DNA of 64,000 nt from positions 76,316 to 140,315 of the forward strand of contig DASQFI010000045.1 in NCBI GenBank assembly GCA_035633215.1. The letters run 5' to 3'. The notes under the pieces were generated by a model. It did not search any database, was not told where the DNA came from, and saw only the letters and a program-made list of their open reading frames with translations. This document shows, piece by piece, positions 8,697 to 43,157 of this stretch (its first letter is position 1; each line of letters starts with the position of its first letter). This DNA is from Vicinamibacterales bacterium (GTDB taxonomy: Bacteria; Acidobacteriota; Vicinamibacteria; Vicinamibacterales; SCN-69-37). A program made the position numbers and the translations under genes.

Positions 8697-8865
8697 AGAG
8701 AGTCCTGTGGGATCAGGCCGGCCGAGCGGTAACAGTGCCGACTTCACCACTGCCAACGCGATCGATCCGGTCCTGCTCCCGCTGACTGAGGCGCGGCAGC
8801 GCGTCTATCCCTGATTTCACGCAAGACCGAGGCAGGCGGAGCCCTGCCGGAACGTGGAGAGCATC

Positions 8866-9978: not shown

Positions 9979-11058
9979 TTGGAATGGAATGCCGTCGTCG
10001 GGACCGGCAGCGGATTGACGGTTGGCATCACAGTTGAAGCGCTGTTCGCGCTTGGGGGCAGGGCGATGCTCGTGGGTCAGAGTTTGCTGATGAAGGAGCT
10101 GCGCGCGCGACTGGCGCGCATCGCGGACACGAACTTCACGGTGCTCGTGGAGGGAGAGAGCGGCGCCGGAAAGGAGCTCGTTGCGCGCGAGATTCACAAC
10201 GGCAGCCATCGCCATCGAGGGCCATTCGTGGCAGTCAATTGCGCGGCCCTGGTCGAAACGCTTCTCGAAGCCGAATTGTTCGGCATCGAGGATCGGACGG
10301 CAACGGGCGTCAAAGGCCGGCGCGGCAAATTCGAGCTGGCGCACAAGGGCACGCTGTTTCTCGACGAGGTCGGCGATCTCTCGCCAACCGCCCAGGCGAA
10401 GCTGCTTCGCGTGCTCCAGGACTGGTCGATCGAGCGCGTGGGTGGGCAGGCTCCGCATCACGTGGATGTGCGCGTCATCGCCGCCACGAATCGCAGCCTG
10501 AGGACCCTGGTGGACAGCGGACGGTTCCGCGCGGACCTCTACTACCGGCTCGCGGGTGTCGAAGTCTACGTGCCGCCGCTCCGCGCGCGGCGCGACGACA
10601 TTCCTCTGCTCGTCAGCCACTTTGCCGCGGGATATCGGCGGACCCGGTCACTCTCGCTGACCGCTCCCGCGCTCGAGGCGCTCATGGCCTACGACTGGCC
10701 CGGCAATGTTCGGCAGCTTGCACGGGCGCTCGAACGAGCCGTGGCGCTTGCGCCGGGGCCGGCCGTCACGGTGACCGATCTGCCGGGCGAGATCTCGAGC
10801 GACTACCAGGACCTGCTCCGCGAGGTTCCGGCCCGCGACGACTCGCTTCGGGCCTGGAGCAGTCGATACGTGCGGCTCGTCCTCGAGCGGTGTGAGGGCA
10901 ACAAGCGGCGCGCCTGCCAGATTCTGGACATCACGTACCACACACTGCAGTCGCACCTCGACTATGGGTCGCCGCTCGCGAGCGTCAAGCCGAAGGCGGA
11001 TCTGCCATTGCGCGAGCCGACGGCTGAGATGACGCAGCCGTGCGAGCGAACGTTGTAG
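9979..11058 (+). CDS. Receiver-less sigma-54 activator-like AAA+ protein (PspF/HrpS-like architecture) with degenerate GAFTGA
   Basis: Walker A GESGAGKE, Walker B TLFLDEV, R-finger region, C-terminal HTH (CEGNKRRACQILDITYHTLQSHL). GAFTGA position reads RTATGV (nt 10294-10311). Probable start is ATG 10066 (MLVGQSLLMKELR...). Confidence 0.85.
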   Translation: MEWNAVVGTGSGLTVGITVEALFALGGRAMLVGQSLLMKELRARLARIADTNFTVLVEGESGAGKELVAREIHNGSHRHRGPFVAVNCAALVETLLEAELFGIEDRTATGVKGRRGKFELAHKGTLFLDEVGDLSPTAQAKLLRVLQDWSIERVGGQAPHHVDVRVIAATNRSLRTLVDSGRFRADLYYRLAGVEVYVPPLRARRDDIPLLVSHFAAGYRRTRSLSLTAPALEALMAYDWPGNVRQLARALERAVALAPGPAVTVTDLPGEISSDYQDLLREVPARDDSLRAWSSRYVRLVLERCEGNKRRACQILDITYHTLQSHLDYGSPLASVKPKADLPLREPTAEMTQPCERTL

Positions 11059-29427: not shown

Positions 29428-29526
29428 GAGCCGTTCTCACTTCCATGCAGTGCTAAACCGCTCGAATCGCGGACAGATGGGCCGAATTCTGCCCGGCGGG
29501 CCGCTACAGGAAAGTGAGAACGGCTC
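29428..29526. repeat. MITE-like 99-nt palindromic element, copy 3 of 4
   Basis: GAGCCGTTCTCACTTCC ... GGAAAGTGAGAACGGCTC. The last base overlaps the TAG stop (29526-29528, minus strand) of the aldehyde dehydrogenase gene. Flanks GA/TA. Confidence 0.75.
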
Positions 29527-31247
29527 TAGGCGTGGGGCCACGCCGCGCTCACGAATACCCGATGCGGCTGTGCGAGATCGCGCGCCGATGGAGTGACAAT
29601 CGTGCGCTCCCCGATCACAATCTTGCGCCCGAGCTTGATCGCCTGCTTCACGTCTTCTTCGCACACGAATTCGACGGCCCCGGCCGCATCCGGGTTGGCG
29701 GCCGGCGCCGGTGGCGACGCGCCGCCACCCAGGAGCGCGTCGACCTGCCGTCGCATCGCGGGCGCATCGATCCCGGCCGATGCGGGCGCCGCCGCAATTT
29801 TGGGCAACCAGCTGTCGTCTGCAGTCGCGCGCTTCGGAGGCGCGACCGGCTGACCGTCAACGCGCACCACGGCGGGACGTACCTCGTACGCGAGTCGCTT
29901 GATGTTCAAAAGATGCCGCGGCGAGATGTTGTCCGACGTGATGTTGCCGCCGAACCCGCCGCACCCCAGCGTCATCGCGGGATCGAGTCCCGTCGTGAGT
30001 CCGATCGCTCCGTGCGTCGTGGGTGTGTTGACGACGATGCGGTACGCGGGTTTCTTCAAGCCGAACTCGAGAATCACGTCCTCGTTCCGCGAGTGGATGG
30101 ACATCGTGTGGCCCATCCCGCCGTACCGCAGGATCTGTTTGCAGCGCTCGCAGCCTTCGCGCCAGTCAGCGACGACGTAGTACGAGAGGACCGGGCAGAG
30201 CTTCTCGATCGACAGCGGGAACTCGCGTCCGACACCCTTCAATTCGGCGATCAGCGCGCGCGTCTTGGGCGGAATGCTGAATCCCGCCTGTTGGGCGAGG
30301 AAGGAGGCCGGCTTGCCCACGAGCTTCGGATTCGGAAGACGCTGCGGAGAGACAAGCACAGCCGCGAGCTTGTCGGCTTCTGCCGGCGACATGAAATACG
30401 CGCCCTGGCTCGTAAACTGCCGCTTCACTTCGTCGGCGACAGCGGCATCGACCACGACGGAGTTCGGCGACGAGCAGAGCACGCCGTTGTCGAAGCACTT
30501 GCCGACGAGGATGTCGCTCGCGGCCTTGGCCAGGTCCGCGGACTTCTCGATGTAGCACGGCGCGTTGCCGGGCCCGACGCCGTACGCCGGCTTGCCGGCG
30601 CTGTAGGCGGCGCGCACGAGTCCCATCCCGCCCGTCGCCAGAATCACGGCGACGTCCCGGTGCTTCATCAGCTCCTGCGTGCCTTCGATCGTCACCGTCT
30701 GCATCCAGTTGACGGCCCCCGCGGGCGCGCCGGCGCTCGCGGCCGCTTCGGCCATGACCTCGGCGACGCGGGTGATGCACCGCGCGGCGGACGGATGCGG
30801 GCTGATGACGATCGGGCAACGCGCTTTGAGCGAGATCAGAATCTTGTAGATCGCCGTGGACGTCGGATTGGTCGAGGGAACGATCGCGGCCACGACGCCG
30901 AACGGCTCCGCGATCTCGACGAGTTTGCGCGCCTCGTCGCGGGCAACGACACCCACGGTCTTCATCGGGCGGATGAATCGATACACCTGCTCGGAGGAGA
31001 AAAGGTTCTTCTCGATCTTGTCAGCGACGACGCCGTAGGTCGTCTCCTCGACGGCCAGCCGTGCGAACTCTTCGGCGCGCGAAGTCGCGGCCGCGGCGGC
31101 CGCATCGATGATCTTGTCGATCTGGGCCTGGCTGAACTCGGCGAGAACCGGCGCGGCCTGCTTGGCGCGCTGCGCCAGGCGTCGAGCTTCCTGGATTGAA
31201 GTGAGATCGCGGTCGGTCGGAGCGGCGGTTGTTGCGGTCGCAGCCAT
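29526..31247 (-). CDS. CoA-acylating aldehyde dehydrogenase (EutE/PduP/SucD-like) with ~117-aa C-terminal extension
   Basis: Catalytic context KCFDNGVLCSSPNS (Cys258). Core ends near residue 456. Extension is Pro/Ala-rich linkers plus two ordered-looking segments. 13 nt downstream of a BMC-H gene. Confidence 0.9.
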   Translation of the reverse strand: MAATATTAAPTDRDLTSIQEARRLAQRAKQAAPVLAEFSQAQIDKIIDAAAAAATSRAEEFARLAVEETTYGVVADKIEKNLFSSEQVYRFIRPMKTVGVVARDEARKLVEIAEPFGVVAAIVPSTNPTSTAIYKILISLKARCPIVISPHPSAARCITRVAEVMAEAAASAGAPAGAVNWMQTVTIEGTQELMKHRDVAVILATGGMGLVRAAYSAGKPAYGVGPGNAPCYIEKSADLAKAASDILVGKCFDNGVLCSSPNSVVVDAAVADEVKRQFTSQGAYFMSPAEADKLAAVLVSPQRLPNPKLVGKPASFLAQQAGFSIPPKTRALIAELKGVGREFPLSIEKLCPVLSYYVVADWREGCERCKQILRYGGMGHTMSIHSRNEDVILEFGLKKPAYRIVVNTPTTHGAIGLTTGLDPAMTLGCGGFGGNITSDNISPRHLLNIKRLAYEVRPAVVRVDGQPVAPPKRATADDSWLPKIAAAPASAGIDAPAMRRQVDALLGGGASPPAPAANPDAAGAVEFVCEEDVKQAIKLGRKIVIGERTIVTPSARDLAQPHRVFVSAAWPHA

Positions 31248-31260
31248 GGGGCCTGGGGCC

Positions 31261-31548
31261 TTAGGCCTTCACGGGACTCTTCGGAAGGACCCGTTCAACC
31301 TCAGCATGCGGACGCGGAATGACGTGCACCGAGACGAGTTCGCCGACGCGTCTGGCCGCGGCGGCGCCCGCATCGGTCGCGGCTTTGATTGCGCCGACGT
31401 CACCGCGCGCGAAGACGGTCACTAAGCCTGCGCCGATGTATTCCTTGCCGACGAGGACGACGTTGGCGGCCTTCACCATTGCATCGGCGGCCTCGATGGC
31501 GCCGATGAGACCGCGGGTTTCGATCATGCCGAGCGCGTCTGCAGTCAT
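31261..31548 (-). CDS. Bacterial microcompartment hexamer shell protein (BMC-H, PduA/EutM/CcmK family)
   Basis: [77 protein letters not shown] is near-colinear with PduA as I recall it. Confidence 0.95.
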
Positions 31549-31624: not shown

Positions 31625-32521
31625 GTGACGGGTTTTCGAGTTCGTCGACTCCTCTCGGTCGCCGCCGCCGCGCCGCTCGCGTTTTTCATCGCTTGTTCCC
31701 AGGGAGACACGGCGCCGCCGGTCGCGACGGTGACGTTCTCGGCCAACAAAGCGCGCGTGCCGCTCGGCAGTCCGGTCGAGCTGACCTATCGCTTCAACGT
31801 CGCGCCCGACGCGAAGTTCGACAACGACTATCGCGTGTTCGTGCACTTCGTCGACGCCGATGGCGGCGTCCTGTGGGCCGACGACCACGATCCGTCGCCA
31901 CCGACGTCGCAGTGGCGGGCGGGCCAGACCATCCAGTACACCCGGACCCGGTTTCTGCCGGTCGTGCCGTTCCTGGGGGAAGTGAAGGTCACGATCGGGC
32001 TGCATCGCGACTCGGTGCGGCTGCCGCTGCAGGGGCTGGACCCGGCCGATCGCGAGTCGACGACCCGGGAGTACAAGGTCGGCACGCTCCATCTGCTCCC
32101 GACGTCCGAGAACATTTTCATTTTCAAGAAGAACGGCTGGCACCCGACGGAATTCGCGCCGGAGAACCCGTCGCTCGAATGGGAATGGAGCCAGAAGGTT
32201 GCGACGCTGACGCTCAAGAACCCGCGGAAGGACGTCTTCTTCTATCTGGAGTTCGACGCCCGCACCGATGTGTTCACCGATCGCCCCCAGCAGGTGACCA
32301 TCTACTCCGGGGACCAGGTGATTGACACGTTCCCGGCCAGCAACAGCGGGCCGGCGCTGAAGAAAATCCCCATCACCGCGGCCCAGCTCGGGACCAATGA
32401 AATGGCCGAGCTGCGCATTGAAGTGGACCGGACCTTCGTACCGGCCAAGCTCCCCGCCGGCGGACGCGATGTTCGCGAGCTCGGTATTCGTGTCTATAAC
32501 GTTTTCGTTGAGACTCGATAA
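31625..32521 (+). CDS. Hypothetical lipoprotein
   Basis: GTG start. Lipobox-like LAFFIAC. No recognised motif. Codon usage looks coding-like. Confidence 0.6.
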   Translation: MTGFRVRRLLSVAAAAPLAFFIACSQGDTAPPVATVTFSANKARVPLGSPVELTYRFNVAPDAKFDNDYRVFVHFVDADGGVLWADDHDPSPPTSQWRAGQTIQYTRTRFLPVVPFLGEVKVTIGLHRDSVRLPLQGLDPADRESTTREYKVGTLHLLPTSENIFIFKKNGWHPTEFAPENPSLEWEWSQKVATLTLKNPRKDVFFYLEFDARTDVFTDRPQQVTIYSGDQVIDTFPASNSGPALKKIPITAAQLGTNEMAELRIEVDRTFVPAKLPAGGRDVRELGIRVYNVFVETR

Positions 32522-32896: not shown

Positions 32897-34114
32897 ATGG
32901 AATACCGTTGCCGGGTAGCCACCGCAAGCGGCCAGATCATGGAGGCGACCTACGTCTCCGAAAACGAGGCCCGGCTGCGCCTCGAGCTCGAGGAAAAGGG
33001 CCTGTATCTTCTGTCCGTCCAGGGCGGAGCCGGGCTCAAGGTCGGCGGGCTCCAACTTCGGCTTCCCAGACGCCGGAAGATCCCCTCGGCTGAGTTCATT
33101 ATCTTCAATCAGGAGCTGGCGACCCTCCTGAAGGCCGGCCTCCCGCTGGTTCAGTCGCTCGACATTCTCCGGAAACGCGTGCCCAACCCGACCTTCAAGG
33201 CCGCACTCGACGACGTCTACGAGCGCGTCCGGTCCGGCAGCGCCCTCTCCGAGGCCTTCGAGGCCCAGCGGCTGTTTACCGGCGTGTACACGGCCTCCCT
33301 CATGGCGGGGGAGAAGAGCGGCAGCCTCGAACAGGTGATTCGGCGGTACGTCCAACACGTCAAGGTTCTAGCGGCCATCCGCGGGAAGGTGATCTCGGCG
33401 CTCATCTACCCTGCCGTCCTGGTCCTCCTCTCCATCGCCGTCGTCAGCCTGATCGTCTTCAAGGTCGTGCCCGAATTTGCGGCGTTCTACTCGCAGGAGG
33501 GCACAGGCGCCCAGTTGCCACTTTCGACCCGGATTGTCGTGGCGATTTCGACGACGCTGGTCGGGAACGGGGGTCTGATTGTCGCGGCCATCGTGGGCTT
33601 GGTCACCGTGGGGGTGCTCTGGTTCCGGCAGCCCAAGGCGCGAGCCCTACTTCACGCCTGGGTCCTGAAACTGCCGTACTTCGGCCCGCTGGCCAGAAAG
33701 TTCGCGACCGCCCAGGTATCCCGGACCCTCGCGACCCTGCTCTCGGGTGGTATCCCCCTAGTGAACTCCCTCGACATTGCCGCGAAATCGGTCGGAAACC
33801 GGCATATCGCCGACCATCTGGCGGTGGTGGCGAAGCAGGTCCGGGAAGGGGGGAGCCTGGCGGGGTCCCTGGCCGAGCGGAAGATCTTCCCCCACGTGGC
33901 CGTCGAGATGGTGGAAGTGGGCGAGTCCACGGGCGCATTGGCCGATATGTTGAACAGCGTGGCCGACTTCTACGACGAGGAGAACGAGACCAGCCTGACC
34001 CGGTTCTCCAACCTCATCCAGCCTCTGCTGCTCATCGTCATGGGCGTCATCATCGCGGGGCTCCTGCTGTCGCTCTACATGCCCCTGTTCCAGTTGTCGT
34101 CGACTCGAGGCTGA
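32897..34114 (+). CDS. Type II secretion / type IV pilus platform protein (GspF/PilC family)
   Basis: 405 aa. Two T2SF repeats, three TM segments, GESTGALADML motif. Confidence 0.9.
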   Translation: MEYRCRVATASGQIMEATYVSENEARLRLELEEKGLYLLSVQGGAGLKVGGLQLRLPRRRKIPSAEFIIFNQELATLLKAGLPLVQSLDILRKRVPNPTFKAALDDVYERVRSGSALSEAFEAQRLFTGVYTASLMAGEKSGSLEQVIRRYVQHVKVLAAIRGKVISALIYPAVLVLLSIAVVSLIVFKVVPEFAAFYSQEGTGAQLPLSTRIVVAISTTLVGNGGLIVAAIVGLVTVGVLWFRQPKARALLHAWVLKLPYFGPLARKFATAQVSRTLATLLSGGIPLVNSLDIAAKSVGNRHIADHLAVVAKQVREGGSLAGSLAERKIFPHVAVEMVEVGESTGALADMLNSVADFYDEENETSLTRFSNLIQPLLLIVMGVIIAGLLLSLYMPLFQLSSTRG

Positions 34115-34115
34115 C

Positions 34116-35762
34116 ATGGCTGACTCTCTCACCTCTTCTGCGGACACCCTGTACGTGGAGCCGCAGGCAGTCCCGGTCGATCAAGCGGCCGAGGAGAGCC
34201 ACGCGCGCAAGATTGCGGATCGCTACGAGCTCGAGTTCGTGGACCTCGTGCACTTCCACGTCGATCACGCCCTGTTTCGGAGCATTCCGGCCGATCTGAT
34301 GCTTCGGTACGGCTTCGTCCCGTACCGCCGGGAGGGGCCGACCCTCCTGATCGTGGTATCCGACCCGAGCGACCTCCAGACCATCGACGAGGTGGCGGTC
34401 CAGCTGAACACGCCGATTCGGGTCTGCGTCGGGACGCCGTCGGCCATCCAGTCGATCCTGAAGAAGAGCGAAAGCTCCCAGCGGGTGCTCGAGGAGGCGA
34501 CCGAGGGCTTTCAGATCCAGATCCTTCGCGAGGACGAGACCGGCGAAGAAAACCTGACCGTCGACAAGCTGACCTCGGATGCGAGCCCCGTCATCCGGCT
34601 GGTCGACTCGATGATCTTCACGGCGCTGCAGCGCCGCGCCTCGGACATCCACGTCGAGACGCAGGACGACTCGGTGCACGTGAAGTACCGCATCGACGGC
34701 GTGCTGCAGCAGGCGATGCGGCCGATCGACAAGCGGTTCCACAGCACGATCATCTCGCGCGTCAAGGTCATGGCCGAGCTCGACATCGCCGAGAAGCGCA
34801 TCCCGCAGGACGGCCGCTTCAAGCTGCGCGTCCGCGGCAAGACGATCGACTTCCGCGTGTCGATCATGCCGAGCGTGCACGGCGAGGACGCCGTCATCCG
34901 CATTCTCGACAAGGAATCGATCAGCGAGCAGTTCACGGAGCTGCGGCTCGACATCCTCGGATTTCCCGACGAGGAGCTGCGGCGCTTCCGTAAGTACATC
35001 CGCGAGCCGTACGGCATGGTGCTCGTCACGGGGCCGACCGGCTCCGGCAAGACGACCACGCTCTACGCGGCGCTGTCCGAGATCAAGACGATCGAGGACA
35101 AGATCATCACGATCGAAGACCCGGTCGAGTACCAGCTCCGGGGCATCACCCAGATTCCCATCAACGAGAAGAAGGGGCTGACGTTCGCGCGCGGGCTGCG
35201 GTCGATTCTGCGTCACGACCCGGACAAGATCATGGTCGGCGAGATCCGCGACCCCGAGACCGCACAGATTGCGATTCAGTCGGCGCTCACGGGGCACCTC
35301 GTGTTCACGACGGTGCACGCCAACAACGTCATCGACGTGCTCGGCCGGTTCCTGAACATGGGCGTCGAGGCGTATCAGTTCGTTGCGGCGCTCAACTGCG
35401 TGCTGGCGCAGCGGCTCGTGCGGCGGATCTGCGAGCACTGCAAGCAGCCGGTGCAGGTCTCGCGGGAGCAGCTCATCGAGTCGGCGATGGATCCGTCGCT
35501 CGGATCGACGCACGCGTTCTGGGAAGGCGCCGGTTGCATCGAGTGCGGCGGCACCGGCTTCAAGGGACGGACGGCGATCTGCGAGCTCATGGATCTCACG
35601 GACAAAATCCGTGACATGATTCTCGATCGTCGGCCGACATCGGAAATCAAGCGGGCAGCGAAGGACGAAGGTATGACGTTCCTTCGCCAGTGCGCGGTCG
35701 GTCGTGTGCTCAACGGCGTGACGACGCTGCGCGAGATCAACAAAGTGACGTTCGTCGAATGA
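34116..35762 (+). CDS. GspE/PilB-family secretion ATPase
   Basis: T2SSE_N-like N-terminus, Walker A GPTGSGKTTT, Asp box, Walker B IMVGEIRD, His box, tetracysteine CEHC...CIECGGTG. Confidence 0.93.
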   Translation: MADSLTSSADTLYVEPQAVPVDQAAEESHARKIADRYELEFVDLVHFHVDHALFRSIPADLMLRYGFVPYRREGPTLLIVVSDPSDLQTIDEVAVQLNTPIRVCVGTPSAIQSILKKSESSQRVLEEATEGFQIQILREDETGEENLTVDKLTSDASPVIRLVDSMIFTALQRRASDIHVETQDDSVHVKYRIDGVLQQAMRPIDKRFHSTIISRVKVMAELDIAEKRIPQDGRFKLRVRGKTIDFRVSIMPSVHGEDAVIRILDKESISEQFTELRLDILGFPDEELRRFRKYIREPYGMVLVTGPTGSGKTTTLYAALSEIKTIEDKIITIEDPVEYQLRGITQIPINEKKGLTFARGLRSILRHDPDKIMVGEIRDPETAQIAIQSALTGHLVFTTVHANNVIDVLGRFLNMGVEAYQFVAALNCVLAQRLVRRICEHCKQPVQVSREQLIESAMDPSLGSTHAFWEGAGCIECGGTGFKGRTAICELMDLTDKIRDMILDRRPTSEIKRAAKDEGMTFLRQCAVGRVLNGVTTLREINKVTFVE

Positions 35763-36721
35763 GGACGCAGTTGGCATCCTCCTGGCTGTCGTCGTCCCCG
35801 CCCACCACCGCGATCGAGATCGCCAGCCGCCGTGTCACCGTCGTCGAGATGGGGCAGTCGGGCGGCATGGCCTCCGTGGTCGCGTTTGCGTCCGAGCCGC
35901 TGCCTGACGACGCGGTCGTGCCCGGGCTCACCGGCACGAACATCGCCCGCCCCGACGTCGTCATCAGCGCGCTGAGAGCCTCGCTGACCCGTGCGGGTCT
36001 GCTGTCGCGGCGCCGGGCGGCGCTGCTCGTTCCCGACAGCGTGGCGCGCGTCACGCTTCTCGGCCTGGAGCAGATTCCGGCCAAGGCCGCCGACCTGGAG
36101 CAACTGGTCCGCTGGCAGGTGAAGAAGGGGACGCCGTTCCCGATTGACGAGGCGCAGGTAGCTTTTTTCGTCGCGAATACCGACGGCGCGACCACGAACC
36201 TCGCGGCGGTCGTCGCCCGGCGGGATGTGATCGCGCAATACGAAGCCGTCACGGACGCGGTCGCGGTGCATGCCGGCCTGGTCGATCTCTCGAGCTTCAA
36301 CGTGATCAACGCGGTGGTCGCCTCCGGCGCGGCGCCGCCCGGAGACTGGCTGCTCGTCTCGCTTGCGCCCGAAGCGACGACGCTCGCGATCATGCGCGGG
36401 CACCAGCTGATGTTCTACCGGCATCGGCTCACGGGGGACGAAGAGGGGCTGAGCTCGCTCGTGCACCAGACGGCGATGTATCACGAGGATCGACTGGGCG
36501 GCTCGGAATTCGCGCGGGTGTGGCTCTGCGGCGGCACGTTCGTCGGCGCGAGCGCCGAGCAGGCACGCGACGAGATCAGCGACCGGCTCGGCGTGCCGGC
36601 CGAAGTGGTCGACGTCCGGCCGGGCGCGCAGCTCCGCGATCGCATGCACGCGTCCGTCGACGTGCTGGACCTGCTCGCGGGGCCGGTCGGTCTGCTGCTG
36701 CGGGATCGGAAAGCGGCGTAG
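35759..36721 (+). CDS. PilM-like actin-fold pilus/secretion assembly protein
   Basis: ATGA overlap with the ATPase stop. Size, position and pattern (IEIASRRVTVVEM..., LVDLSSFNVINAV) fit PilM. Confidence 0.8.
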   Translation: MRTQLASSWLSSSPPTTAIEIASRRVTVVEMGQSGGMASVVAFASEPLPDDAVVPGLTGTNIARPDVVISALRASLTRAGLLSRRRAALLVPDSVARVTLLGLEQIPAKAADLEQLVRWQVKKGTPFPIDEAQVAFFVANTDGATTNLAAVVARRDVIAQYEAVTDAVAVHAGLVDLSSFNVINAVVASGAAPPGDWLLVSLAPEATTLAIMRGHQLMFYRHRLTGDEEGLSSLVHQTAMYHEDRLGGSEFARVWLCGGTFVGASAEQARDEISDRLGVPAEVVDVRPGAQLRDRMHASVDVLDLLAGPVGLLLRDRKAA

Positions 36722-36727
36722 ATTCAG

Positions 36728-37342
36728 ATGCTCAAAGGCAACCTCTCCACACGGCCCTTCTACAACGAAAAAGTGGTGTCGCTCGCGCTCGGCGGCATCC
36801 TGCTGGTAGCGGTCGGGCTGACCGTGTTCAACGTCATCCAGCTCGTCTCGCTGTCACGAGAGCGGCGCGTGCTGAACTCGCACATCGAACGCGACCGCGC
36901 CGAAGCCGCGCGCATCAGCGCGCAGGCCGACGCGATCCAGCGCACCGTCGATCGGTCGCGCTTGCAGCTCCTCGCCGGCGGCACGCGCGAAGCCAACGCC
37001 CTCATCGACCAGCGCACGTTCTCGTGGACGGAGTTCTTCGGGTTGATCGAAAAGACGCTGCCGCGGGATGTCCGATTGATCGGCGTGACGCCGCGGGTCG
37101 AACAGGGCGAGTTCAAGATCGCGATGCGGCTCATGGCCCGAACGCCCGACGACGTGGCGAAGTTTTCCGACAGCCTGACCGGCACGGGCTACTTTTACGA
37201 CGTCATTCCGATGGAAACGCAGCGAAATGACGACGACACGGACACGCTGACGCTTGTGGCCGGCTACCTGCCGCCCGTGAACCCGAACCCCGGCCGCAAG
37301 GGCGGGCCCACGCCGCCGGGGAAGCGAGGCGAGCGGCCATGA
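36728..37342 (+). CDS. PilN-like bitopic membrane protein
   Basis: Short cytoplasmic N-terminus, one TM, coiled coil, then WTEFFGLIEKTLPRDVRLIGV pattern typical of PilN. Confidence 0.7.
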   Translation: MLKGNLSTRPFYNEKVVSLALGGILLVAVGLTVFNVIQLVSLSRERRVLNSHIERDRAEAARISAQADAIQRTVDRSRLQLLAGGTREANALIDQRTFSWTEFFGLIEKTLPRDVRLIGVTPRVEQGEFKIAMRLMARTPDDVAKFSDSLTGTGYFYDVIPMETQRNDDDTDTLTLVAGYLPPVNPNPGRKGGPTPPGKRGERP

Positions 37343-37932
37343 GTCTCTGGCGACGCGTCGTCACCGAGCGCCGCGCGGCGGTCCTGCCGCTGATGGTCTT
37401 TCTGCTCGCCAACGTCGCGGTCCTCGCGCTCGGCGTCTTCCCGCTCGAACGGAGTGTCGCCGGCCTGAAGCAGAGCGAGCTGGACGCGCTCACGGCGCGG
37501 GGCCAGGCGCAGAAGCTCGAAGCGGCCGCGAAGGCCGCGCAGGTCGGCAAGGATCGCGCCGAGGAGGAGCTGAAGAAGTTCTATTCGCAGATTCTCCCGG
37601 TCGACGCGCAGGCGGCGAGCCAGTTGACGTACGCATGGCTCGATCGGCTCGCGAAGGAATCTGGCGTCGAGTTCGATCGCAGCACGTTCAAGGAGGACGA
37701 CGTTCGCGAGAGCCGCCTCAAGAGGTGGACGGGGAAACCCAAGCTCGTCGGCGACTACGCGAGCATCCGAAAGTTTCTCTACGCCGTCGAAACGGCCGAG
37801 GAGTTCGTCATCATCGAAGAGGTCGGATTGTCGCAGCTCGAAGCCGCGCGCGGCGGAGATCTCCTGGTGCTCGAGCTGAGCCTGGCGACGTACTTTCTTC
37901 CACGCTCCCAGGCTGGAGTGTTCGCGAAGTGA
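37339..37932 (+). CDS. PilO-like bitopic membrane protein
   Basis: ATGA overlap with pilN-like. One TM plus coiled coil plus ferredoxin-like C-terminal region. Assigned mainly by position. Confidence 0.6.
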   Translation: MSLWRRVVTERRAAVLPLMVFLLANVAVLALGVFPLERSVAGLKQSELDALTARGQAQKLEAAAKAAQVGKDRAEEELKKFYSQILPVDAQAASQLTYAWLDRLAKESGVEFDRSTFKEDDVRESRLKRWTGKPKLVGDYASIRKFLYAVETAEEFVIIEEVGLSQLEAARGGDLLVLELSLATYFLPRSQAGVFAK

Positions 37933-38501
37933 AACTCCTTCCTCCACCGGGCGCTCACCGTAATCGGCAATTGGTCCTGCTCGGCCTGACGTTGGTCGCG
38001 CTCGTGTTCGTCGTCCGGAACTTCGTCGTGCCGGAAATCTCCAACGGCGAACCGGCTACGGCGCCGCTCCGAACGTCCAATCCCCAGGTTCGCCAAACGG
38101 CAGGCACGCCGAACGCGGCCTCGCAGCTGCCTGAGCCGTTGAAGCTCACGTCGCTCGAACCGGTGCCGGACGCGCCGGAGGTCGGGCGCAATCCGTTTGC
38201 CTTCGGCGCACTCCCCAAGCCGCCGATCGCGGCGCCGCCGCCGCAGGTGTATCAGCCGCCGGCGCCGCCGCCGCCTCCGCCATGGCCGCCGCCGATTGGT
38301 TTGAAGCTCGTGACGATCGTGGACGGGCCGGACGGACGACGACAGGCGAGTTTGAAAGATCCGGTGAGCGGGACGACGTTTCTCGCACCTGAAGGGGCGA
38401 TCGTGGATGGCCGCTACAAGGTGCTCAAGGTTGCGCAGACATCGGTGGTCGTGTCGTACGTCGATGGCAGCGGCCAGCGAGTGCTGACGTTTGGTGGGTA
38501 A
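37929..38501 (+). CDS. Pro-rich membrane protein in the PilP/GspC position
   Basis: GTGA overlap with pilO-like. One TM, PPPQVYQPPAPPPPPPWPPP linker, C-terminal beta-rich domain (LKLVTIVDG...YKVLKV...VVVSY) resembling the PilP/GspC HR domain. Confidence 0.5.
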   Translation: MKLLPPPGAHRNRQLVLLGLTLVALVFVVRNFVVPEISNGEPATAPLRTSNPQVRQTAGTPNAASQLPEPLKLTSLEPVPDAPEVGRNPFAFGALPKPPIAAPPPQVYQPPAPPPPPPWPPPIGLKLVTIVDGPDGRRQASLKDPVSGTTFLAPEGAIVDGRYKVLKVAQTSVVVSYVDGSGQRVLTFGG

Positions 38502-38513
38502 AAGGAGCGACTG

Positions 38514-40889
38514 GTGAACTCAAGAATCCGGGCGGTCGTCGCGGGGCTGGCGCTCGTCGTGGCCGCCGGATGCGCGACCGGAAGCAGGATTCGAAGCGCG
38601 GACGCAGCCGGGCTTCGCGGCGATTGGGACACGGCCGTGGCGTACTACCGGGAGGCACTGGCGCGCGATCCCAACCGCGTCGACGTCAAGGTCAAGCTCC
38701 AGCGGGCGACGCGCAATGCGTCGGGCGAGCATCTCAAGCGCGCGAAAGACCTCGAAGCGCAGGATCAGCTGCCGGGTGCCATCGCCGAGTACCGTTTGGC
38801 GGGGGCGCTGGATCCCGGCAACACGCTGGCTGCCACCAAGGCCTCCGAGCTCGAGCGGAAGATCCGCGAGCAGCTCGAGGCGGCGCGTCCGCGGTCCCGC
38901 GTCGACGAACTGCGTCAGCAGGCGGCGCAGCAGTCGGGCGTTCCGAAGCTCGATCCGCGCACGCCGATTCCGTTCCTCCGTAACGCAGGGTCGGTTCGCG
39001 ACTTGTTGCGTGCGATCTCCGAGCTGACCGGCATCGGCGTCACGTACGAGCAAGGTTCCATGGGAGTCGTCGACCGGCCATTTCCGTTCGAGATCCGCAA
39101 CCAGTCCGTTGAGGAAGCCCTTGCGCAGATCATGTCTGCCAACCGGCTGACGTACAAAGTTATCGGCCAGAACACGATCTTCGTCTACGCGGACACGCCG
39201 CAGCTGCGGCAGCAGTACGAAGACCAGTACGTGCAGCCGTTCTTCCTGTCGCACGCCGACGCGGCCGAAGTCGCGGGCACGCTGAACCAGCTCCTGTCAC
39301 AGGGCGCGACCGGAAGCCGGCCGCAGATTCAGGTCAACAAGAACGGCAACATGCTCATCATCAAGGGCTCGCTGCCGGTGCTCACGACGATTGACAACAT
39401 CATCCGCACGCTGGACAAGCCCCGCGCTGAAGTGATGATCGAAGCGGAGATCCTCGAGGTCGATCGCCTCTTCCTGAAGCAGGTCGGGCTGGACCTGAGT
39501 CAATGGGCGCTCGGGTTCACCTATTCCCCGGAGCTCGCGCCGACCGCGGGCGGGCTTCCGCCGACGCCGCCGCCGCCGATCAACATGAACACGCTTCGTC
39601 AGGGCACGAGCGTCAACGACTTCTACGTCACGGTGCCAAGCGCGCTCGTGCAGCTGCTCGAATCGGATGCGCGGACGAAGGTGCTCGCCAAGCCCCAGAT
39701 TCGCGGGCGGGAGGGCATGACCGTCAACCTGGGGCTGGGTGATGAAGTGCCGCAGCCCCAGACCGTCTTCCAGGCGTCGGCCGCCGGCGGCATCGCCAAC
39801 GTGCCCGCGACGCAGGTGCAGTACCGCAGAATCGGCGTCAACTTGATCTTCACGCCGCGCGTTACCTATCAGGGCGAGATCATTCTCGAGAACATGACGC
39901 TCGAAAAGAGTGGACTCGGCGCGAACCTCGAGGTTGGCGGCCAGACGTTTCCGACGTTCGTCACGCGGACCGCCCAGACGACCATTCGCCTTCGCGACGG
40001 AGAGTCCAACCTGCTGGCCGGGTTGATTCGCGACGAGAGCCGCAGGACTGCGACGTCGTTTCCGGGGCTCACGGGCCTGCCGATTCTTCGAAACATTTTC
40101 GGGAACACCCAGACGCAGGTCGATCAGACGGACGTCGTGATGATCATCACGCCGCGCATCGTTCGGGGCCACGAGCTGACGGTCAGCGACTTCAAGCCCC
40201 AGTTCGTCGGCGTCGGCCAGAACTTCGGATCGGGCGCGGTGCCGCCACTGATTTCGCCCGACGCTCCGCCGCCGGCTCCGGTCGTGCCGGCCGGTGCGGC
40301 CGGTCAGCCGGGAACGCCGCCGCCAGGGGTGCCGCCCGGAACCGTGTCGATGGGCGTGCCACCCGGTCAGACCGCCACGCCGGCCACGACCACGGCGACG
40401 CCGCCGCGCGCACCGGGAGTGGTGCCGATTCAACCGGTGACGCCCGCGGCCGAACCCGCCGCCACGCCGCCATCGCAGGGAAAGGTCGTGGTGACGGCTC
40501 CGACGGCGGCGCTTCAGGTCGGCGCGCCGTATACGGTCCCCATTTCGGTCGAGGGCATCAGCCAGCAGCTGGGCGTCCTCTCGCTGACCGTGACGTACGA
40601 TCCGACCGTGCTGCGCGCCGTCAACGTCGTGCAGGGCACGCACATGCAGCAGGGCGGCGTGACGACGACGTTCGCGCCGAAGATCGACGCCGCAACGGGC
40701 CGAGTGGACATCGCGATCGCGCGTCCGTTCGACCGGCCCGGAGTCACGGGGCCCGGCGTGCTTGGCGCGGTGGCGTTCGAAGCGGTCCGCCCGGGGACGT
40801 CGCCGATCAGCATCCAGGGCGTCCTGACGACGACGTCGGGACAGCCAATCCCCGTCCAGATGGTTTCGGGGACCGTCACAGTGAAATGA
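38514..40889 (+). CDS. Secretin (GspD/PilQ family) lipoprotein with N-terminal TPR module and C-terminal cohesin-like domain
   Basis: AAGGAG 6 nt before GTG 38514. Lipobox LVVAAGC. TPR-like residues ~30-110. Secretin core (LAKPQIRGREGMTV...GLPILRNIFGN...VVMIITPRIV). C-terminal ~140 aa (TVPISVEG...LSLTVTYDPTVLRAVNVVQG...) is cohesin-like. Confidence 0.9.
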   Translation: MNSRIRAVVAGLALVVAAGCATGSRIRSADAAGLRGDWDTAVAYYREALARDPNRVDVKVKLQRATRNASGEHLKRAKDLEAQDQLPGAIAEYRLAGALDPGNTLAATKASELERKIREQLEAARPRSRVDELRQQAAQQSGVPKLDPRTPIPFLRNAGSVRDLLRAISELTGIGVTYEQGSMGVVDRPFPFEIRNQSVEEALAQIMSANRLTYKVIGQNTIFVYADTPQLRQQYEDQYVQPFFLSHADAAEVAGTLNQLLSQGATGSRPQIQVNKNGNMLIIKGSLPVLTTIDNIIRTLDKPRAEVMIEAEILEVDRLFLKQVGLDLSQWALGFTYSPELAPTAGGLPPTPPPPINMNTLRQGTSVNDFYVTVPSALVQLLESDARTKVLAKPQIRGREGMTVNLGLGDEVPQPQTVFQASAAGGIANVPATQVQYRRIGVNLIFTPRVTYQGEIILENMTLEKSGLGANLEVGGQTFPTFVTRTAQTTIRLRDGESNLLAGLIRDESRRTATSFPGLTGLPILRNIFGNTQTQVDQTDVVMIITPRIVRGHELTVSDFKPQFVGVGQNFGSGAVPPLISPDAPPPAPVVPAGAAGQPGTPPPGVPPGTVSMGVPPGQTATPATTTATPPRAPGVVPIQPVTPAAEPAATPPSQGKVVVTAPTAALQVGAPYTVPISVEGISQQLGVLSLTVTYDPTVLRAVNVVQGTHMQQGGVTTTFAPKIDAATGRVDIAIARPFDRPGVTGPGVLGAVAFEAVRPGTSPISIQGVLTTTSGQPIPVQMVSGTVTVK

Positions 40890-40916: not shown

Positions 40917-41396
40917 ATGAAATGGCTTCGTAAATCGGTCGCGGGGTTCACGTTCGTCGAGCTCATCATCGCGACGGCAGTGATGATGATCCTCGCCTCG
41001 GCGGCGCTGCCGATTGCGCGCGTGTCGATCAAGCGTCAGCGCGAAAAGGAGCTGCGATACACGCTGCGCGAGATGCGGGTCGCGATCGACAAGTTCAAGG
41101 ACTACGCCGACACGGGGCGAATCGCGACGTTCGAGGTGCAGTTCGGCAGCGAAGGCTATCCATCGTCGCTCGACGTCCTGGTCGAGGGCGTGGCGATGGC
41201 CAACGACACCACGGGGCGCAAGCTCAAGTTCCTCCGCCGCATTCCGATCGATCCGATGTCCGGGCGCGCCGAATGGGGCATGCGCGCGTATCAGGATTCG
41301 CCGGATTCCAAGGTCTGGGGCGGCCAGAACGTCTACGACGTGTATTCCAAGACCGAGGGGATCGCGCTCAACGGCACGAAGTACCGCGATTGGTGA
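40917..41396 (+). CDS. GspG-like major pseudopilin, copy 1
   Basis: Prepilin motif G|FTFVELIIATAV. GspG-like body (RVAIDKFKDY...YPSSLDVLV...RRIPIDPMSG...YDVYSK...YRDW). Confidence 0.85.
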   Translation: MKWLRKSVAGFTFVELIIATAVMMILASAALPIARVSIKRQREKELRYTLREMRVAIDKFKDYADTGRIATFEVQFGSEGYPSSLDVLVEGVAMANDTTGRKLKFLRRIPIDPMSGRAEWGMRAYQDSPDSKVWGGQNVYDVYSKTEGIALNGTKYRDW

Positions 41397-41401
41397 GCAT
41401 C

Positions 41402-41848
41402 ATGCAGATCACCACAGCATTCCGGAATGGACCTCGGGGGTCTAAAGACCCCCGAGGTCTTTCGTCCGACCGCGGCTGGACGATGATCGAGCTGCTCATC
41501 GTCATCTCGATCATCATGATTCTGGCGGCGATGGCGTTGACGCAGTATCGGAACTCGATTCTGTACGCGAAAGAAGCGGCGCTCAAGTCCGACCTGTTTC
41601 AGATGCGCGACGCCATCGACCAGTACTACGCCGACAAGGGCAAATATCCCGAGTCGCTGCAGTCGCTGGTGTCCGAGAGCTATCTGCGCGGCATTCCGCG
41701 AGATCCGTTCACGAATTCGTCGGATACCTGGGCGACGACGGCCGCCGATCCGCAGCCGGGACAGCTCTCGAGTCAGACCGGGGTGTACGACGTGAAGAGC
41801 GGCTCGGATCTGAACGCGAGCGACGGCAGCCGCTACGCAGACTGGTGA
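41402..41848 (+). CDS. GspG-like pseudopilin, copy 2, with long leader
   Basis: G|WTMIELLIVISI. RDAIDQYYADKGKYPESLQSLV...YLRGIPRDPF...YDVKSGSD...YADW. ATG 41402 is the only in-frame start upstream of the cleavage motif. Confidence 0.8.
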   Translation: MQITTAFRNGPRGSKDPRGLSSDRGWTMIELLIVISIIMILAAMALTQYRNSILYAKEAALKSDLFQMRDAIDQYYADKGKYPESLQSLVSESYLRGIPRDPFTNSSDTWATTAADPQPGQLSSQTGVYDVKSGSDLNASDGSRYADW

Positions 41849-41856
41849 GGCACCGC

Positions 41857-42324
41857 ATGAACACGCGCCGAAGCCCGGCAATCCGCCGACTTGCTCACAT
41901 TCTCCTTGCCGCGGGTGTCATCGCGTCGCTGACGCCCGCCGGCGGCTGTGACAAAGTGGCGCTCGTTGCGCCCACCGGCTCCGAACTGACGCTCGTCGCT
42001 ACCGCCGCGTCGGTGCCGGCGGATGGATCGATCGAGATTACGGCCGTCATCTTCGAAGGCGGCTACGGTCCGGGCAGCGGTCAGAACTCGGGCACGGCCA
42101 TCACACCCGGTATCGGTGAGCCGGTACGCGACGGCACCAACGTCGCCTTCGTCACGACACTCGGGCGGTTCGAGTCAGCTGTGGCGACCACGACCGACGG
42201 CAAGGCGACCGTCAAGTTCTTTGGCGATGGCCGCGCTGGCACGGCAAAAGTCACGGGCGTCTCGGGACCCGCCTCGGCTACGATCGACATTCTGATAACC
42301 GCGACTGGCGCGACGAGCCGGTAG
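41857..42324 (+). CDS. Lipoprotein with bacterial Ig-like (Big_1/invasin-type) domain
   Basis: Lipobox LTPAGGC. Pattern LTLVATAASVPADGSIEITAVI...NVAFVTTLGRF...TTDGKATVKF...GTAKVTGVSG typical of Big domains. GTG 41845 is an alternative start. Confidence 0.55.
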   Translation: MNTRRSPAIRRLAHILLAAGVIASLTPAGGCDKVALVAPTGSELTLVATAASVPADGSIEITAVIFEGGYGPGSGQNSGTAITPGIGEPVRDGTNVAFVTTLGRFESAVATTTDGKATVKFFGDGRAGTAKVTGVSGPASATIDILITATGATSR

Positions 42325-42341: not shown

Positions 42342-43157
42342 GTGTCGATCATGACGAGTGCGCGCCACGACATCGCGGCTTCGAGCGGGCTCCGGCGGCG
42401 CGACGACGGGTACATCCTGGTCGTCCTGCTGATCGGGATGGCCGTGGCGGCGATCTGGATGAGCGCCGCGCTGCCTGCATGGCGCCAGCAATCGATGCGC
42501 GAGAAAGAGCTCGACCTGATCTTCCGCGGCGAGCAATACGCGCGCGCCATCGCGCTCTACCAGATCAAGAACAACTCGTATCCACTCGACATCGACGTCC
42601 TCATCTCACAGCGTTACCTGCGCAAGAAGTGGAAGGACCCGGTAACCGGAGAGGACTTTCAACCGGTCGGCATTACCACGCCGGGCACGGGCACGACGCC
42701 GGGCCGATCGGGGACGACGCCGGGGACCACGCCTGCGAGAGGCGTCACGCCCGGGATGCCCGCGCGCGGCGCCACACCGCAACAAACGGCCACGCCAGGC
42801 CGCTCACCTCAAGGACTCTCGTTCGGCAACCAGCCGCTCGTCGGCGGCATCACGGGCGTGCGCAGCCTGAGCCAGGCGACGTCGATCCGCGTGTACAACG
42901 GCCAGCAGCAGCACAATCTCTGGCAGTTCGACGCGGCGATGCTGATGGCGCGCATGGGACGCAATCAGGCGCCGCCCGGCGGCGGGCCGGCACGTGGACG
43001 AGGCGACGGCCGCGCCGGTCCTGGAGTGCGGCAAGGCGTACCGGGGGGAGTGCCGGGCGGAGTGCCGGGCCGCGGTGTTGGTCCTGGCGGTCGTGGTGGC
43101 ATGCCGCCGCCTCCACCTCCGCCCGGCGGACCGGGACGCGGAGCCGGAAGTGAATGA
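42342..43157 (+). CDS. Divergent pseudopilin-like protein with Gly/Pro/Thr-rich low-complexity tail
   Basis: G|YILVVLLIGMAV hydrophobic N-terminus without Glu at +5. REKELDLIFRGEQYARAIALYQ resembles T2SS minor pseudopilins. C-terminal half is TPG and GGVPG repeats and a PPPPPPP run. Confidence 0.5.
   Translation: MSIMTSARHDIAASSGLRRRDDGYILVVLLIGMAVAAIWMSAALPAWRQQSMREKELDLIFRGEQYARAIALYQIKNNSYPLDIDVLISQRYLRKKWKDPVTGEDFQPVGITTPGTGTTPGRSGTTPGTTPARGVTPGMPARGATPQQTATPGRSPQGLSFGNQPLVGGITGVRSLSQATSIRVYNGQQQHNLWQFDAAMLMARMGRNQAPPGGGPARGRGDGRAGPGVRQGVPGGVPGGVPGRGVGPGGRGGMPPPPPPPGGPGRGAGSE

What the first reader, a model, noticed from the sequence alone, without database searches (positions are those of the whole stretch)
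38514..40889. Three-module secretin: TPR lipoprotein head, secretin core, C-terminal cohesin-like domain
The ORF begins with a lipobox (LVVAAGC) and TPR-like repeats reminiscent of separate pilotin or PilF/PilW proteins. It continues through N-domains and a canonical secretin core, then a Pro/Ala/Gly-rich linker (residues ~570-650). It ends in ~140 aa whose pattern (TVPISVEG...GVLSLTVTYDPTVLRAVNVVQG...GVLGAVAFEAV) looks like a cohesin fold. A cohesin on the outer face of a secretin would be a docking platform for dockerin-bearing partners, meaning secreted substrates or surface complexes. I see no dockerin-like (DxDxDG repeat) protein in this window.
Basis: partly seen in the sequence, partly recalled or inferred. 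Interest (0 to 1): 0.55.

Follow-up and report, generated by a model that had tools for sequence, protein, structure and literature searches.

The report
Lipoprotein secretin with tethered cohesin domain
This soil acidobacterium's outer-membrane secretion pore really does carry a TPR lipoprotein head and a C-terminal cohesin (a protein-docking module known from cellulosomes), a design kept in every relative found, but the cohesin most likely hangs in the periplasm, not on the cell surface, and its partner is unknown.

Summary
ORF 38514-40889 (791 aa) encodes a lipobox, a short TPR head, N0 and N3 domains, a secretin core, a disordered Pro/Ala-rich linker and a genuine cohesin domain. The cohesin passes Pfam's threshold over its full length, and its model (pLDDT 96) matches only cohesins among the top 50 PDB hits.

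It is not a one-off or a chimera. In total, 236 of 237 full-length homologues in two clades of Vicinamibacterales/Acidobacteriota keep both the head and the cohesin. The gene sits in a syntenic, chromosomal type II secretion / type IV pilus-like operon.

The linker and cohesin start exactly where the S-domain of solved secretins starts. That position is in the periplasm, under the outer membrane, where pilotin lipoproteins dock.

No dockerin was found in the window or in 30 related loci (560 kb in all), so the partner is unidentified. A genome-wide dockerin search was not possible with these tools.

My best reading is a self-piloted liposecretin with 12-15 flexibly tethered periplasmic docking modules. 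I found no paper describing this fusion. I rate it a new variant of a known kind, of moderate interest.

The parts
38514..40889 (+). Whole gene: TPR-lipo-secretin-cohesin, 791 aa plus stop
   Evidence: Identical to P0001, named by NCBI 'cohesin domain-containing protein [Vicinamibacterales bacterium]'.
38514..38573 (+). Signal peptide and lipobox (LVVAAG|C20)
   Evidence: Read from the sequence. Cys20 is kept in at least 90% of homologues. 113 of 118 homologues have a lipobox.
38574..38888 (+). TPR head, residues 21-125. One canonical TPR motif at about 30-63 plus a second helical hairpin.
   Evidence: Pfam TPR_14 above threshold. PDB profile hits to consensus TPRs. pLDDT about 94. It is the most conserved module, with mean pairwise identity 0.62.
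38889..38963 (+). Conserved fixed-length connector, residues 126-150, with an invariant LDPR motif
   Evidence: length 23-25 aa, identity 0.59; D147 and R149 are invariant.
38964..39221 (+). N0-type domain, residues 151-236
   Evidence: Weak STN hit. Beta-alpha-beta-beta-alpha-beta-beta fold in the AF2 model.
39228..39428 (+). Single N3-type (Secretin_N) domain, residues 239-305
   Evidence: Pfam PF03958, 43 bits.
39429..40169 (+). Secretin core, residues 306-552. Includes the amphipathic helical loop FPGLTGLPILRNIFG (516-530; nt 40059-40103) and the last barrel strand (531-551; nt 40104-40166).
   Evidence: Pfam PF00263, 109 bits. Alignment to ExeD, EpsD and other solved secretins. Foldseek hits to secretins.
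40170..40268 (+). Conserved post-secretin segment, residues 553-585, in the position of an S-domain
   Evidence: Identity 0.59 and fixed length of 32-34 aa. Conserved T556, D559, P562, G566, L579, I580 and S581.
40269..40475 (+). Pro/Ala/Thr/Gly-rich disordered linker, residues 586-654. Contains the conserved motif RAPGVVPIQPV (632-642; nt 40407-40439).
   Evidence: pLDDT below 50. Composition, variable length of 48-88 aa and identity 0.35. Up to about 240 aa in the second clade. Motif seen.
40476..40886 (+). Cohesin domain, residues 655-791
   Evidence: Identity 0.51, similar to N0 and N3.
31625..32521 (+). First gene of the operon: conserved 298-aa lipoprotein of unknown fold
   Evidence: Lipobox FFIAC. 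No Pfam, NCBIfam or PDB match. Found in nearly every related locus that extends far enough upstream.
32897..34114 (+). GspF/PilC-type platform protein
   Evidence: Pfam T2SSF. NCBIfam GspF 332 bits, below the cut-off of 424.
34116..35762 (+). GspE/PilB-type assembly ATPase with MshEN domain
   Evidence: GspE 543 bits and PilB 541 bits, both below their cut-offs.
35690..36721 (+). PilM-like protein (start codon uncertain)
   Evidence: Pfam PilM_2; TIGR01175.
36728..37342 (+). PilN-position gene, 204 aa. Assigned by position only.
   Evidence: Synteny. No family hit.
37339..37932 (+). PilO/GspM-like protein
   Evidence: Weak PilO and GspM hits.
37929..38501 (+). PilP-position gene: one transmembrane helix, a Pro-rich stretch and a small C-terminal beta domain. 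Assigned by position and sequence features.
   Evidence: Conserved synteny.
40917..41396 (+). GspG-like pseudopilin 1 (G|FTFVE processing motif)
   Evidence: N_methyl motif.
41402..41848 (+). GspG-like pseudopilin 2 (G|WTMIE processing motif; C-terminus ...YADW)
42342..43157 (+). Pilin-like 271-aa protein that lacks Glu+5 and has a long Gly/Pro/Arg-rich tail
   Evidence: Conserved in related loci.

Best explanation
This is the outer-membrane secretin of a conserved chromosomal type IV-filament machine in Vicinamibacterales (Acidobacteriota). The machine resembles a type II secretion system (T2SS): it has GspG-like pseudopilins, one GspE/PilB ATPase and a PilMNOP-type platform.

Shown: the domain order is lipobox, TPR, N0, N3, secretin, conserved 33-aa segment, disordered Pro-rich linker, cohesin. 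This order is universal in the family.

Inferred: the N-terminal lipid anchor and TPR head make the protein a self-piloted 'liposecretin', with the pilotin or assembly-factor function built in cis. After the last barrel strand the chain leaves the barrel on the periplasmic side, where other secretins carry their pilotin-binding S-domain. Each of the 12-15 subunits therefore dangles a cohesin in the periplasm on a 70-240-residue flexible tether. Every characterised cohesin is a protein-docking module. The most likely job is to hold a periplasmic or outer-membrane inner-leaflet partner at the secretin. That partner could be cargo to be secreted, or an envelope or assembly component. The partner is not identified.
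For: Domain calls.

Conservation: 118 of 118 full-length homologues in the first clade and 118 of 119 in the second have the cohesin. The single exception is visibly frameshifted. All 237 have the TPR head. The cohesin is as conserved as N0 and N3 (0.51 against 0.50 and 0.48), which indicates purifying selection.

Synteny: the operon is syntenic in the related loci examined, with the secretin reading frame intact in 19 of the 28 genome loci and cut by contig ends or frameshifts in the rest, and in two distant homologues.

Topology: the amphipathic loop and last strand align with ExeD and EpsD directly before their S-domains. The S-domain binds outer-membrane lipoprotein pilotins, and only the beta-lip and amphipathic loop are in the membrane (PMC6532946). 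A TPR lipoprotein pilotin binds the secretin's C-terminal tail in RcpA-TadD (PMC10499894).

Precedent for a lipidated self-piloting secretin: HxcQ, as cited in PMC12475490.

System type: GspG-like pseudopilins and a PilM/PilO platform.
Against: No dockerin or other candidate partner was found in the window or in 30 related loci, 560 kb in total. These were motif and single-sequence searches with limited sensitivity, and no genome-wide search was possible.

Periplasmic location is inferred by homology to proteobacterial secretins and was not tested. The monomer model has pTM 0.45 and gives no reliable inter-domain geometry.

Lipidation and outer-membrane sorting rules are not established for Acidobacteriota. 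The TPR head has no specific similarity to known pilotins. A periplasmic cohesin has no precedent that I know of.
Confidence: 0.6

Rival explanations
1. The cohesin is displayed on the cell surface, on top of the secretin. It docks dockerin-bearing secreted enzymes or surface complexes, giving a cellulosome-like anchor in a bacterium with two membranes.
For: The domain is a true cohesin. Cohesins characterised so far act extracellularly (established knowledge of cellulosomes). The nearest non-secretin relatives are small PEP-CTERM plus cohesin proteins, which are expected to be cell-surface proteins.
Against: The C-terminal extension begins right after the last barrel strand, at the position of the periplasmic S-domain. 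No known route takes a secretin C-terminus across the outer membrane. Twelve to fifteen linkers threaded through the pore would block it. No dockerin was found locally.
Confidence: 0.07
2. The cohesin has no dockerin-type partner. It is a periplasmic structural module. It might bind peptidoglycan or another glycan, self-associate into an extra ring, or act as a spacer that positions or stabilises the secretin in the envelope.
For: No dockerin in 560 kb around 31 operons. The fold is a beta-jelly-roll, which is also common in carbohydrate-binding modules (established knowledge). A lytic transglycosylase with LysM domains is a conserved neighbour, and an extra SLT gene lies inside the operon in L031. 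Other secretins carry peptidoglycan-binding add-ons, such as the AMIN domains of PilQ (own knowledge).
Against: The sequence and fold match cohesins specifically, not carbohydrate-binding modules: the top 50 hits are all cohesins. A long flexible tether suits capture or docking better than rigid scaffolding. No glycan-binding evidence exists.
Confidence: 0.22
3. The cohesin and/or the conserved linker motif serve assembly in cis or within the operon. The TPR head of the same or a neighbouring subunit binds the C-terminal region, as in TadD-RcpA. Alternatively, the cohesin binds the conserved operon lipoprotein (31625-32521) as an oversized S-domain/pilotin pair.
For: TPR grooves bind extended peptides, and TadD binds the last four residues of RcpA. 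A conserved motif, RAPGVVPIQPV, sits in an otherwise variable linker. The 298-aa lipoprotein is found with the secretin in nearly every related locus that extends far enough upstream.
Against: A secretin that is itself lipidated should not need a pilotin. Co-occurrence within one operon is not specific evidence.
Confidence: 0.1
4. The fusion is an assembly or gene-calling artefact, or a recent chance fusion without function.
For: The window comes from a metagenome-assembled genome.
Against: The same architecture occurs in 236 of 237 full-length homologues from many samples and assemblers. It also occurs in 28 genome loci. The domain is under conservation comparable to N0 and N3.
Confidence: 0.01

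Closest known systems
HxcQ 'liposecretin' of Pseudomonas aeruginosa (self-piloted T2SS secretin; Viarre et al. 2009, cited in PMC12475490)
   Same: A secretin with its own N-terminal lipobox, so no separate pilotin is expected.
   Different: As far as I know, HxcQ has no TPR module and no C-terminal cohesin. It also belongs to a classical Gsp-type system with GspC/L/M.
GspD/PulD/EpsD S-domain with pilotins (PulS, AspS, EpsS; PMC6532946)
   Same: A C-terminal extension directly after the last barrel strand acts as a protein-docking site under the outer membrane.
   Different: The S-domain is about 60 aa of helices. Here there is a conserved 33-aa segment, then a 70-240-aa Pro-rich tether, then a 137-aa beta-sandwich cohesin. 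There are only two N-domains (N0 and N3) instead of four.
TPR lipoprotein pilotins PilF/PilW/Tgl (type IVa pilus) and TadD (Tad; PMC10499894)
   Same: A lipidated TPR module associated with a secretin.
   Different: Those are separate proteins with about six TPRs. Here about two TPR-like hairpins are fused in cis, and the profile search found only generic TPR matches.
Type IVa pilus PilQ with PilMNOP
   Same: N0-N3-secretin layout and a PilM/N/O/P-type alignment complex in the operon.
   Different: No AMIN domains. The filament genes are GspG-like pseudopilins. No PilT was seen among the window genes I scanned. The PilQ model scores far below its cut-off (98.8 against 284).
Non-cellulosomal cohesins, e.g. 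Archaeoglobus fulgidus cohesin (PDB 2xdh)
   Same: Best structural match (E = 3.3e-11, TM 0.79). A single cohesin outside any cellulosome.
   Different: 19% sequence identity. That cohesin is not part of a membrane channel, and its dockerin partners are known (own knowledge).
PEP-CTERM plus cohesin proteins of about 195 aa (P0224-P0226)
   Same: The nearest cohesins outside the secretin family in the homologue search.
   Different: Only 28-29% identical. They are small and carry a PEP-CTERM sorting signal, with no secretin.

Membership tests
Secretin superfamily (PF00263) | C-terminal secretin domain with amphipathic helical loop and terminal barrel strand | tested here: met
   Pfam 109 bits against a threshold of 27.5. 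Residue-level alignment to ExeD, EpsD and other solved secretins. Foldseek E of about 1e-15 to 1e-17 to solved secretins.
Secretin superfamily (PF00263) | Periplasmic N0 plus N3-type ring domains | tested here: met
   Secretin_N 43 bits, a weak STN hit, and an N0 fold in the AF2 model.
Secretin superfamily (PF00263) | 12-15-mer gated ring in the outer membrane | not testable with these tools
   Needs a multimer model or cryo-EM.
T2SS GspD (TIGR02517 equivalog) | Score above the equivalog cut-off | tested here: not met
   140.6 bits against a cut-off of 351.35.
T2SS GspD (TIGR02517 equivalog) | N0-N1-N2-N3 domain set and GspC/GspL/GspM partners | tested here: not met
   Only one Secretin_N domain. 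The operon has PilM, a PilN-position gene, PilO/GspM-like and a PilP-position gene.
T2SS GspD (TIGR02517 equivalog) | GspG-type pseudopilins, and a single assembly ATPase without a retraction ATPase in the operon | tested here: met
   GspG hits are weak (37 bits against a cut-off of 88.85), but the processing motif and the C-terminal YxDW are present.
Type IVa pilus PilQ (TIGR02515) | Score above the subfamily cut-off; AMIN domains | tested here: not met
   98.8 bits against a cut-off of 284.35. No AMIN hit.
Cohesin (PF00963) | Sequence match above the Pfam gathering score over the whole domain | tested here: met
   45.3 bits against 24.1, model positions 2-139 of 139.
Cohesin (PF00963) | Nine-stranded beta-sandwich cohesin fold | tested here: met
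   pLDDT 95.9. The top 50 PDB matches are all cohesins, with TM up to 0.86.
Cohesin (PF00963) | Binds a cognate dockerin encoded in the same genome | tested here: inconclusive
   No dockerin motif or phmmer hit in the window or in 30 related loci. The rest of the genome could not be searched.
Liposecretin (HxcQ-like, self-piloted) | Lipobox with an invariant Cys after the signal peptide | tested here: met
   LVVAAG|C20. Conserved.
Liposecretin (HxcQ-like, self-piloted) | Actual lipidation and pilotin-independent outer-membrane targeting | not testable with these tools
   Needs palmitate labelling, globomycin treatment or a Cys20 mutant.
TPR lipoprotein pilotins (PilF/PilW/Tgl/TadD) | Specific homology or fold match to the roughly six-TPR pilotin family | tested here: not met
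   The profile of residues 20-150 hits designed or consensus TPRs and unrelated TPR proteins. No PilF, PilW or TadD appears among the 60 hits listed. Only about two hairpins are present.

The most novel reading that the evidence does not exclude
The tethered cohesins are a cargo-capture device. Folded periplasmic proteins carrying a dockerin-like or other cognate tag would be fished out by 12-15 flexible cohesin arms and concentrated at the secretin entrance. That would be a modular, tag-based substrate-recruitment mechanism for a type II-like secretion system, whose secretion signal has never been defined. Less likely, the arms reach the cell surface and anchor a cellulosome-like complex on a bacterium with two membranes.
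Probability: 0.15. Interest if true: 0.8.

Novelty: new variant of a known kind. Interest (0 to 1): 0.5.

Why it matters
Secretins are well studied, but their known additions are N-terminal rings, AMIN domains and a short pilotin-binding S-domain. This family has a cis-fused TPR lipoprotein head and a true cohesin on a long tether. The design is kept without exception across an abundant order of soil Acidobacteria.

It suggests a way of coupling a secretin to partners that has not been described. How type II systems recognise cargo is a long-standing open question. A cohesin is a domain with an easily testable binding logic, through pull-downs and a search for dockerin-like tags, so the family offers a tractable handle.

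It would also be the first case I know of a cohesin working inside the periplasm. The limits are that no partner is known and the location is inferred, not shown.

Tried and rejected
1. Dockerin search. The target was all six-frame ORFs of the window plus 30 loci. Nothing scored better than E = 1.8. The one loose regex hit, at 9546-9578, lies in a FimT/GspH-like pseudopilin and is not a dockerin.

2. 'Stand-alone' cohesin proteins of 116-250 aa in the protein database looked like a separate family. They are fragments of the same secretin, from short contigs or from frameshift-ridden long-read assemblies in syntenic operons.

3. The ORF at 29514-31199 (+) was first taken as an upstream operon gene. 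Codon-position GC shows that the real gene is the aldehyde dehydrogenase on the minus strand.

4. The operon could not be classed as T2SS or type IVa pilus. GspE, GspF and the secretin all score between the two and below every equivalog cut-off. Foldseek gives similar scores to type IV pilus, T2SS and T3SS secretins.

6. Five full-text literature searches found no paper describing a secretin-cohesin or TPR-secretin fusion. Peer et al. 2009 on non-cellulosomal cohesins is not held.

7. The 298-aa operon lipoprotein has no Pfam, NCBIfam or PDB match.

8. I looked for inverted repeats flanking the inverted 159-aa lipoprotein gene. Only weak ones were found.

9. The whole-library profile search with the cohesin domain found 9030 cohesin proteins. 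The best scores go to multi-cohesin scaffoldin-like proteins because their domain scores add up. Single-domain C-terminal hits in proteins of 770-870 aa are the secretins.
Full report
**1. The observation**

ORF 38514-40889 (+) is real. It is 791 codons long and starts at a GTG, with AAGGAG about 8 nt upstream. Its codon-position GC pattern (0.68/0.49/0.85) is that of the genuine frame in this 66% GC genome.

Pfam finds six elements:
- TPR_14 at residues 29-62: 25.6 bits, threshold 23.5.
- A weak STN/N0 signal.
- Secretin_N at 245-305: 43 bits.
- Secretin at 382-551: 109 bits.
- Cohesin PF00963 at 657-790: 45.3 bits against a threshold of 24.1, E = 1.3e-11, covering model positions 2-139 of 139.

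The lipobox is LVVAAG|C20. An AlphaFold2 model built on 54 homologues gives confident helical hairpins for residues 21-125 (pLDDT about 94). It also shows an N0 fold, an N3 fold and the secretin beta-sheets. The stretch 573-652 is disordered; 25 of its 80 residues are Pro. The C-terminal beta-sandwich is confident.

**2. The cohesin is a true cohesin**

Modelled alone, the C-terminal domain reaches pLDDT 95.9. All of its top 50 Foldseek matches in the PDB are cohesins. The best is the non-cellulosomal cohesin of Archaeoglobus fulgidus (2xdh, E = 3.3e-11, TM 0.79). Type I, II and III cellulosomal cohesins reach TM 0.8-0.86. A sequence profile of the domain also retrieves almost only cohesins from the PDB, though weakly.

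**3. It is a family trait, not an accident**

The protein is identical to an NCBI entry named 'cohesin domain-containing protein [Vicinamibacterales bacterium]'.
- Among the 120 best homologues (49-88% identity), all 118 full-length ones carry both the cohesin and the TPR head, and 113 carry a recognisable lipobox.
- A second, more distant clade of 800-870 aa was seeded with P0304. In it, 118 of 119 have the cohesin and 119 of 119 have the head. The exception is visibly frameshifted.
- All named members are Acidobacteriota, mostly Vicinamibacterales.

Mean pairwise identity by module is as follows:

| Module | Mean pairwise identity |
|---|---|
| TPR head | 0.62 |
| Secretin core | 0.59-0.65 |
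| Post-secretin segment | 0.59 |
| Cohesin | 0.51 |
| N0 | 0.50 |
| N3 | 0.48 |
| Linker | 0.35 |

The linker also varies in length: 48-88 aa in the first clade and up to about 240 aa in the second. The cohesin is thus under constraint comparable to the N-domains, while the linker behaves as a spacer. The exception within the linker is one conserved motif, RAPGVVPIQPV at 632-642.

Short 'stand-alone cohesin' proteins in the databases are fragments of the same gene. The closest cohesins outside the secretins are PEP-CTERM proteins at 28-29% identity.

**4. Genomic context**

The gene lies in a 12-gene plus-strand operon:
- a 298-aa lipoprotein of unknown fold
- GspF/PilC
- GspE/PilB with an MshEN domain
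- PilM
- a PilN-position gene
- a PilO/GspM-like gene
- a Pro-rich PilP-position gene
- the secretin
- two GspG-like pseudopilins
- a 159-aa Ig-like lipoprotein
- a pilin-like protein lacking Glu+5

GspE, GspF and the secretin score between the T2SS and type IVa pilus equivalogs and below all cut-offs. Structure search does not separate the subtypes either. It is best described as a T2SS-like member of the type IV filament superfamily with a PilMNOP-type platform.

The flanks are housekeeping genes: SecA, IMPDH, the glycine cleavage system, MetK, LptFG, Tol, LigA and DegP. The order is conserved in 28 genome loci and in the distant clade, including a neighbouring lytic transglycosylase with LysM domains. 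This is an old, core locus and not a mobile element.

**5. Where the cohesin sits**

The protein aligns residue by residue with solved secretins through FPGLTGLPILRNIFG (516-530) and the strand that ends in ...VVMIITPRIVR (531-551). The first stretch is the amphipathic helical loop and the second is the last barrel strand. The corresponding stretch in ExeD is [37 protein letters not shown].

In those structures only the beta-lip and the amphipathic loop enter the outer membrane. The chain after the last strand is the S-domain, which is bound by pilotin lipoproteins anchored in the inner leaflet (PMC6532946). In RcpA the C-terminal tail is held by the TPR lipoprotein TadD (PMC10499894).

By homology, residues 552 onward of this protein lie on the periplasmic side of the outer membrane, outside the barrel. 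This is an inference and not a measurement, but no known mechanism would carry 12-15 C-terminal tails across the membrane.

**6. How it most likely works**

Shown: the architecture, its conservation and its operon.

Inferred:
- The lipid anchor and TPR head act as a built-in pilot or assembly module, as the lipid anchor does for HxcQ (cited in PMC12475490). The head is only a generic two-hairpin TPR with no specific match to PilF, PilW or TadD. NCBIfam notes a resemblance to the N-terminus of the Myxococcus lipoprotein TraC.
- The conserved 553-585 segment may play the inter-subunit role of an S-domain.
- The Pro-rich tether lets each cohesin sweep a large part of the periplasm. At about 0.3 nm per residue, a general figure for extended chains, its contour length is about 25 nm or more.
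- The cohesin docks a partner.

Which partner is unknown. No dockerin-like sequence occurs in the window or in 560 kb of related operon neighbourhoods, and I could not search whole genomes. Alternatives are a non-dockerin structural or cell-wall role, or an assembly interaction in cis with the TPR head, the linker motif or the operon lipoprotein. These are listed as rival explanations with their tests.

**7. Comparison with what is known, and novelty**

The pieces are all known kinds: secretin, lipobox, TPR and cohesin. The combination is visible in automatic annotation as 'cohesin domain-containing protein' or 'general secretion pathway protein D'. Five full-text searches found no paper that describes or discusses a secretin-cohesin fusion or a cis-fused TPR-secretin.

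It fails the membership tests for GspD and PilQ equivalogs. It passes those for the secretin superfamily and for cohesin. I rate it a new variant of a known kind.

Interest is moderate at 0.5. A secretion specialist would find a family-wide tethered cohesin on a secretin unexpected, and it is easy to test. At present there is no partner, no localisation data and no phenotype.

Noticed in passing
window 41845-42324 (+): The 159-aa Ig-like lipoprotein gene between pseudopilin 2 and the 271-aa pilin-like gene is on the + strand here. Its homologue is on the opposite strand at the same position in the related loci where I checked the orientation, including the closest relative L003 (blastn 69% identity, reversed). 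This is a local inversion of about 0.4-0.5 kb. No convincing flanking inverted repeats were found.
   Followed up: partly
window 40407-40439 (residues 632-642 of the secretin): A conserved short motif, RAPGVVPIQPV, sits inside the otherwise variable Pro-rich linker, about 15 residues before the cohesin. The distant clade has G[TS]SPVPGTVVVP at a similar place. It could be a binding site for the TPR head or another partner.
   Followed up: partly
window 8854-9881 (+): A ComEA-like helix-hairpin-helix protein (8854-9201) is followed by a FimT/GspH-like pseudopilin with a GYSLVELLLVLV N-terminus and no Pfam hit. A sigma-54 activator follows at 9979-11058. This may be a DNA-uptake-related pilin pair, separate from the main operon.
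   Followed up: partly
window 29526-31548 (-): A lone BMC-domain shell protein (31261-31548) sits next to a 573-aa aldehyde dehydrogenase-family gene, divergent from the secretion operon. The pair recurs in related loci L001 and L031. There is no full microcompartment locus nearby.
   Followed up: partly
window 29514-31199 (+): This 561-aa ORF is a shadow of the minus-strand aldehyde dehydrogenase gene. It has the wrong codon-position GC pattern and no family hits, and it is not part of the operon.
   Followed up: yes
window 51226-53607 (-): A single 793-aa protein has two LptF_LptG matches, so LptF and LptG appear to be fused in one gene.
   Followed up: no
window 42342-43157 (+): The pilin-like protein has G|YILVV (no Glu at +5) and a long Gly/Pro/Arg-rich C-terminal tail. 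The N-terminal part is conserved in relatives.
   Followed up: no
loci L001, L002, L004, L005, L025, L028: Long-read metagenome-assembled genomes carry many frameshift-split genes, for example T2SSF at 68 aa and a split T2SSE. This creates spurious stand-alone 'cohesin' proteins of 116-250 aa in public protein collections.
   Followed up: yes
secretin residues 5-134 (window 38526-38915): The N-terminal head matches the N-terminus (16-146 of 602) of NCBIfam NF040658, the Myxococcus outer-membrane-exchange lipoprotein TraC, at 45 bits and E = 4.9e-12. This suggests a shared lipoprotein TPR module.
   Followed up: no
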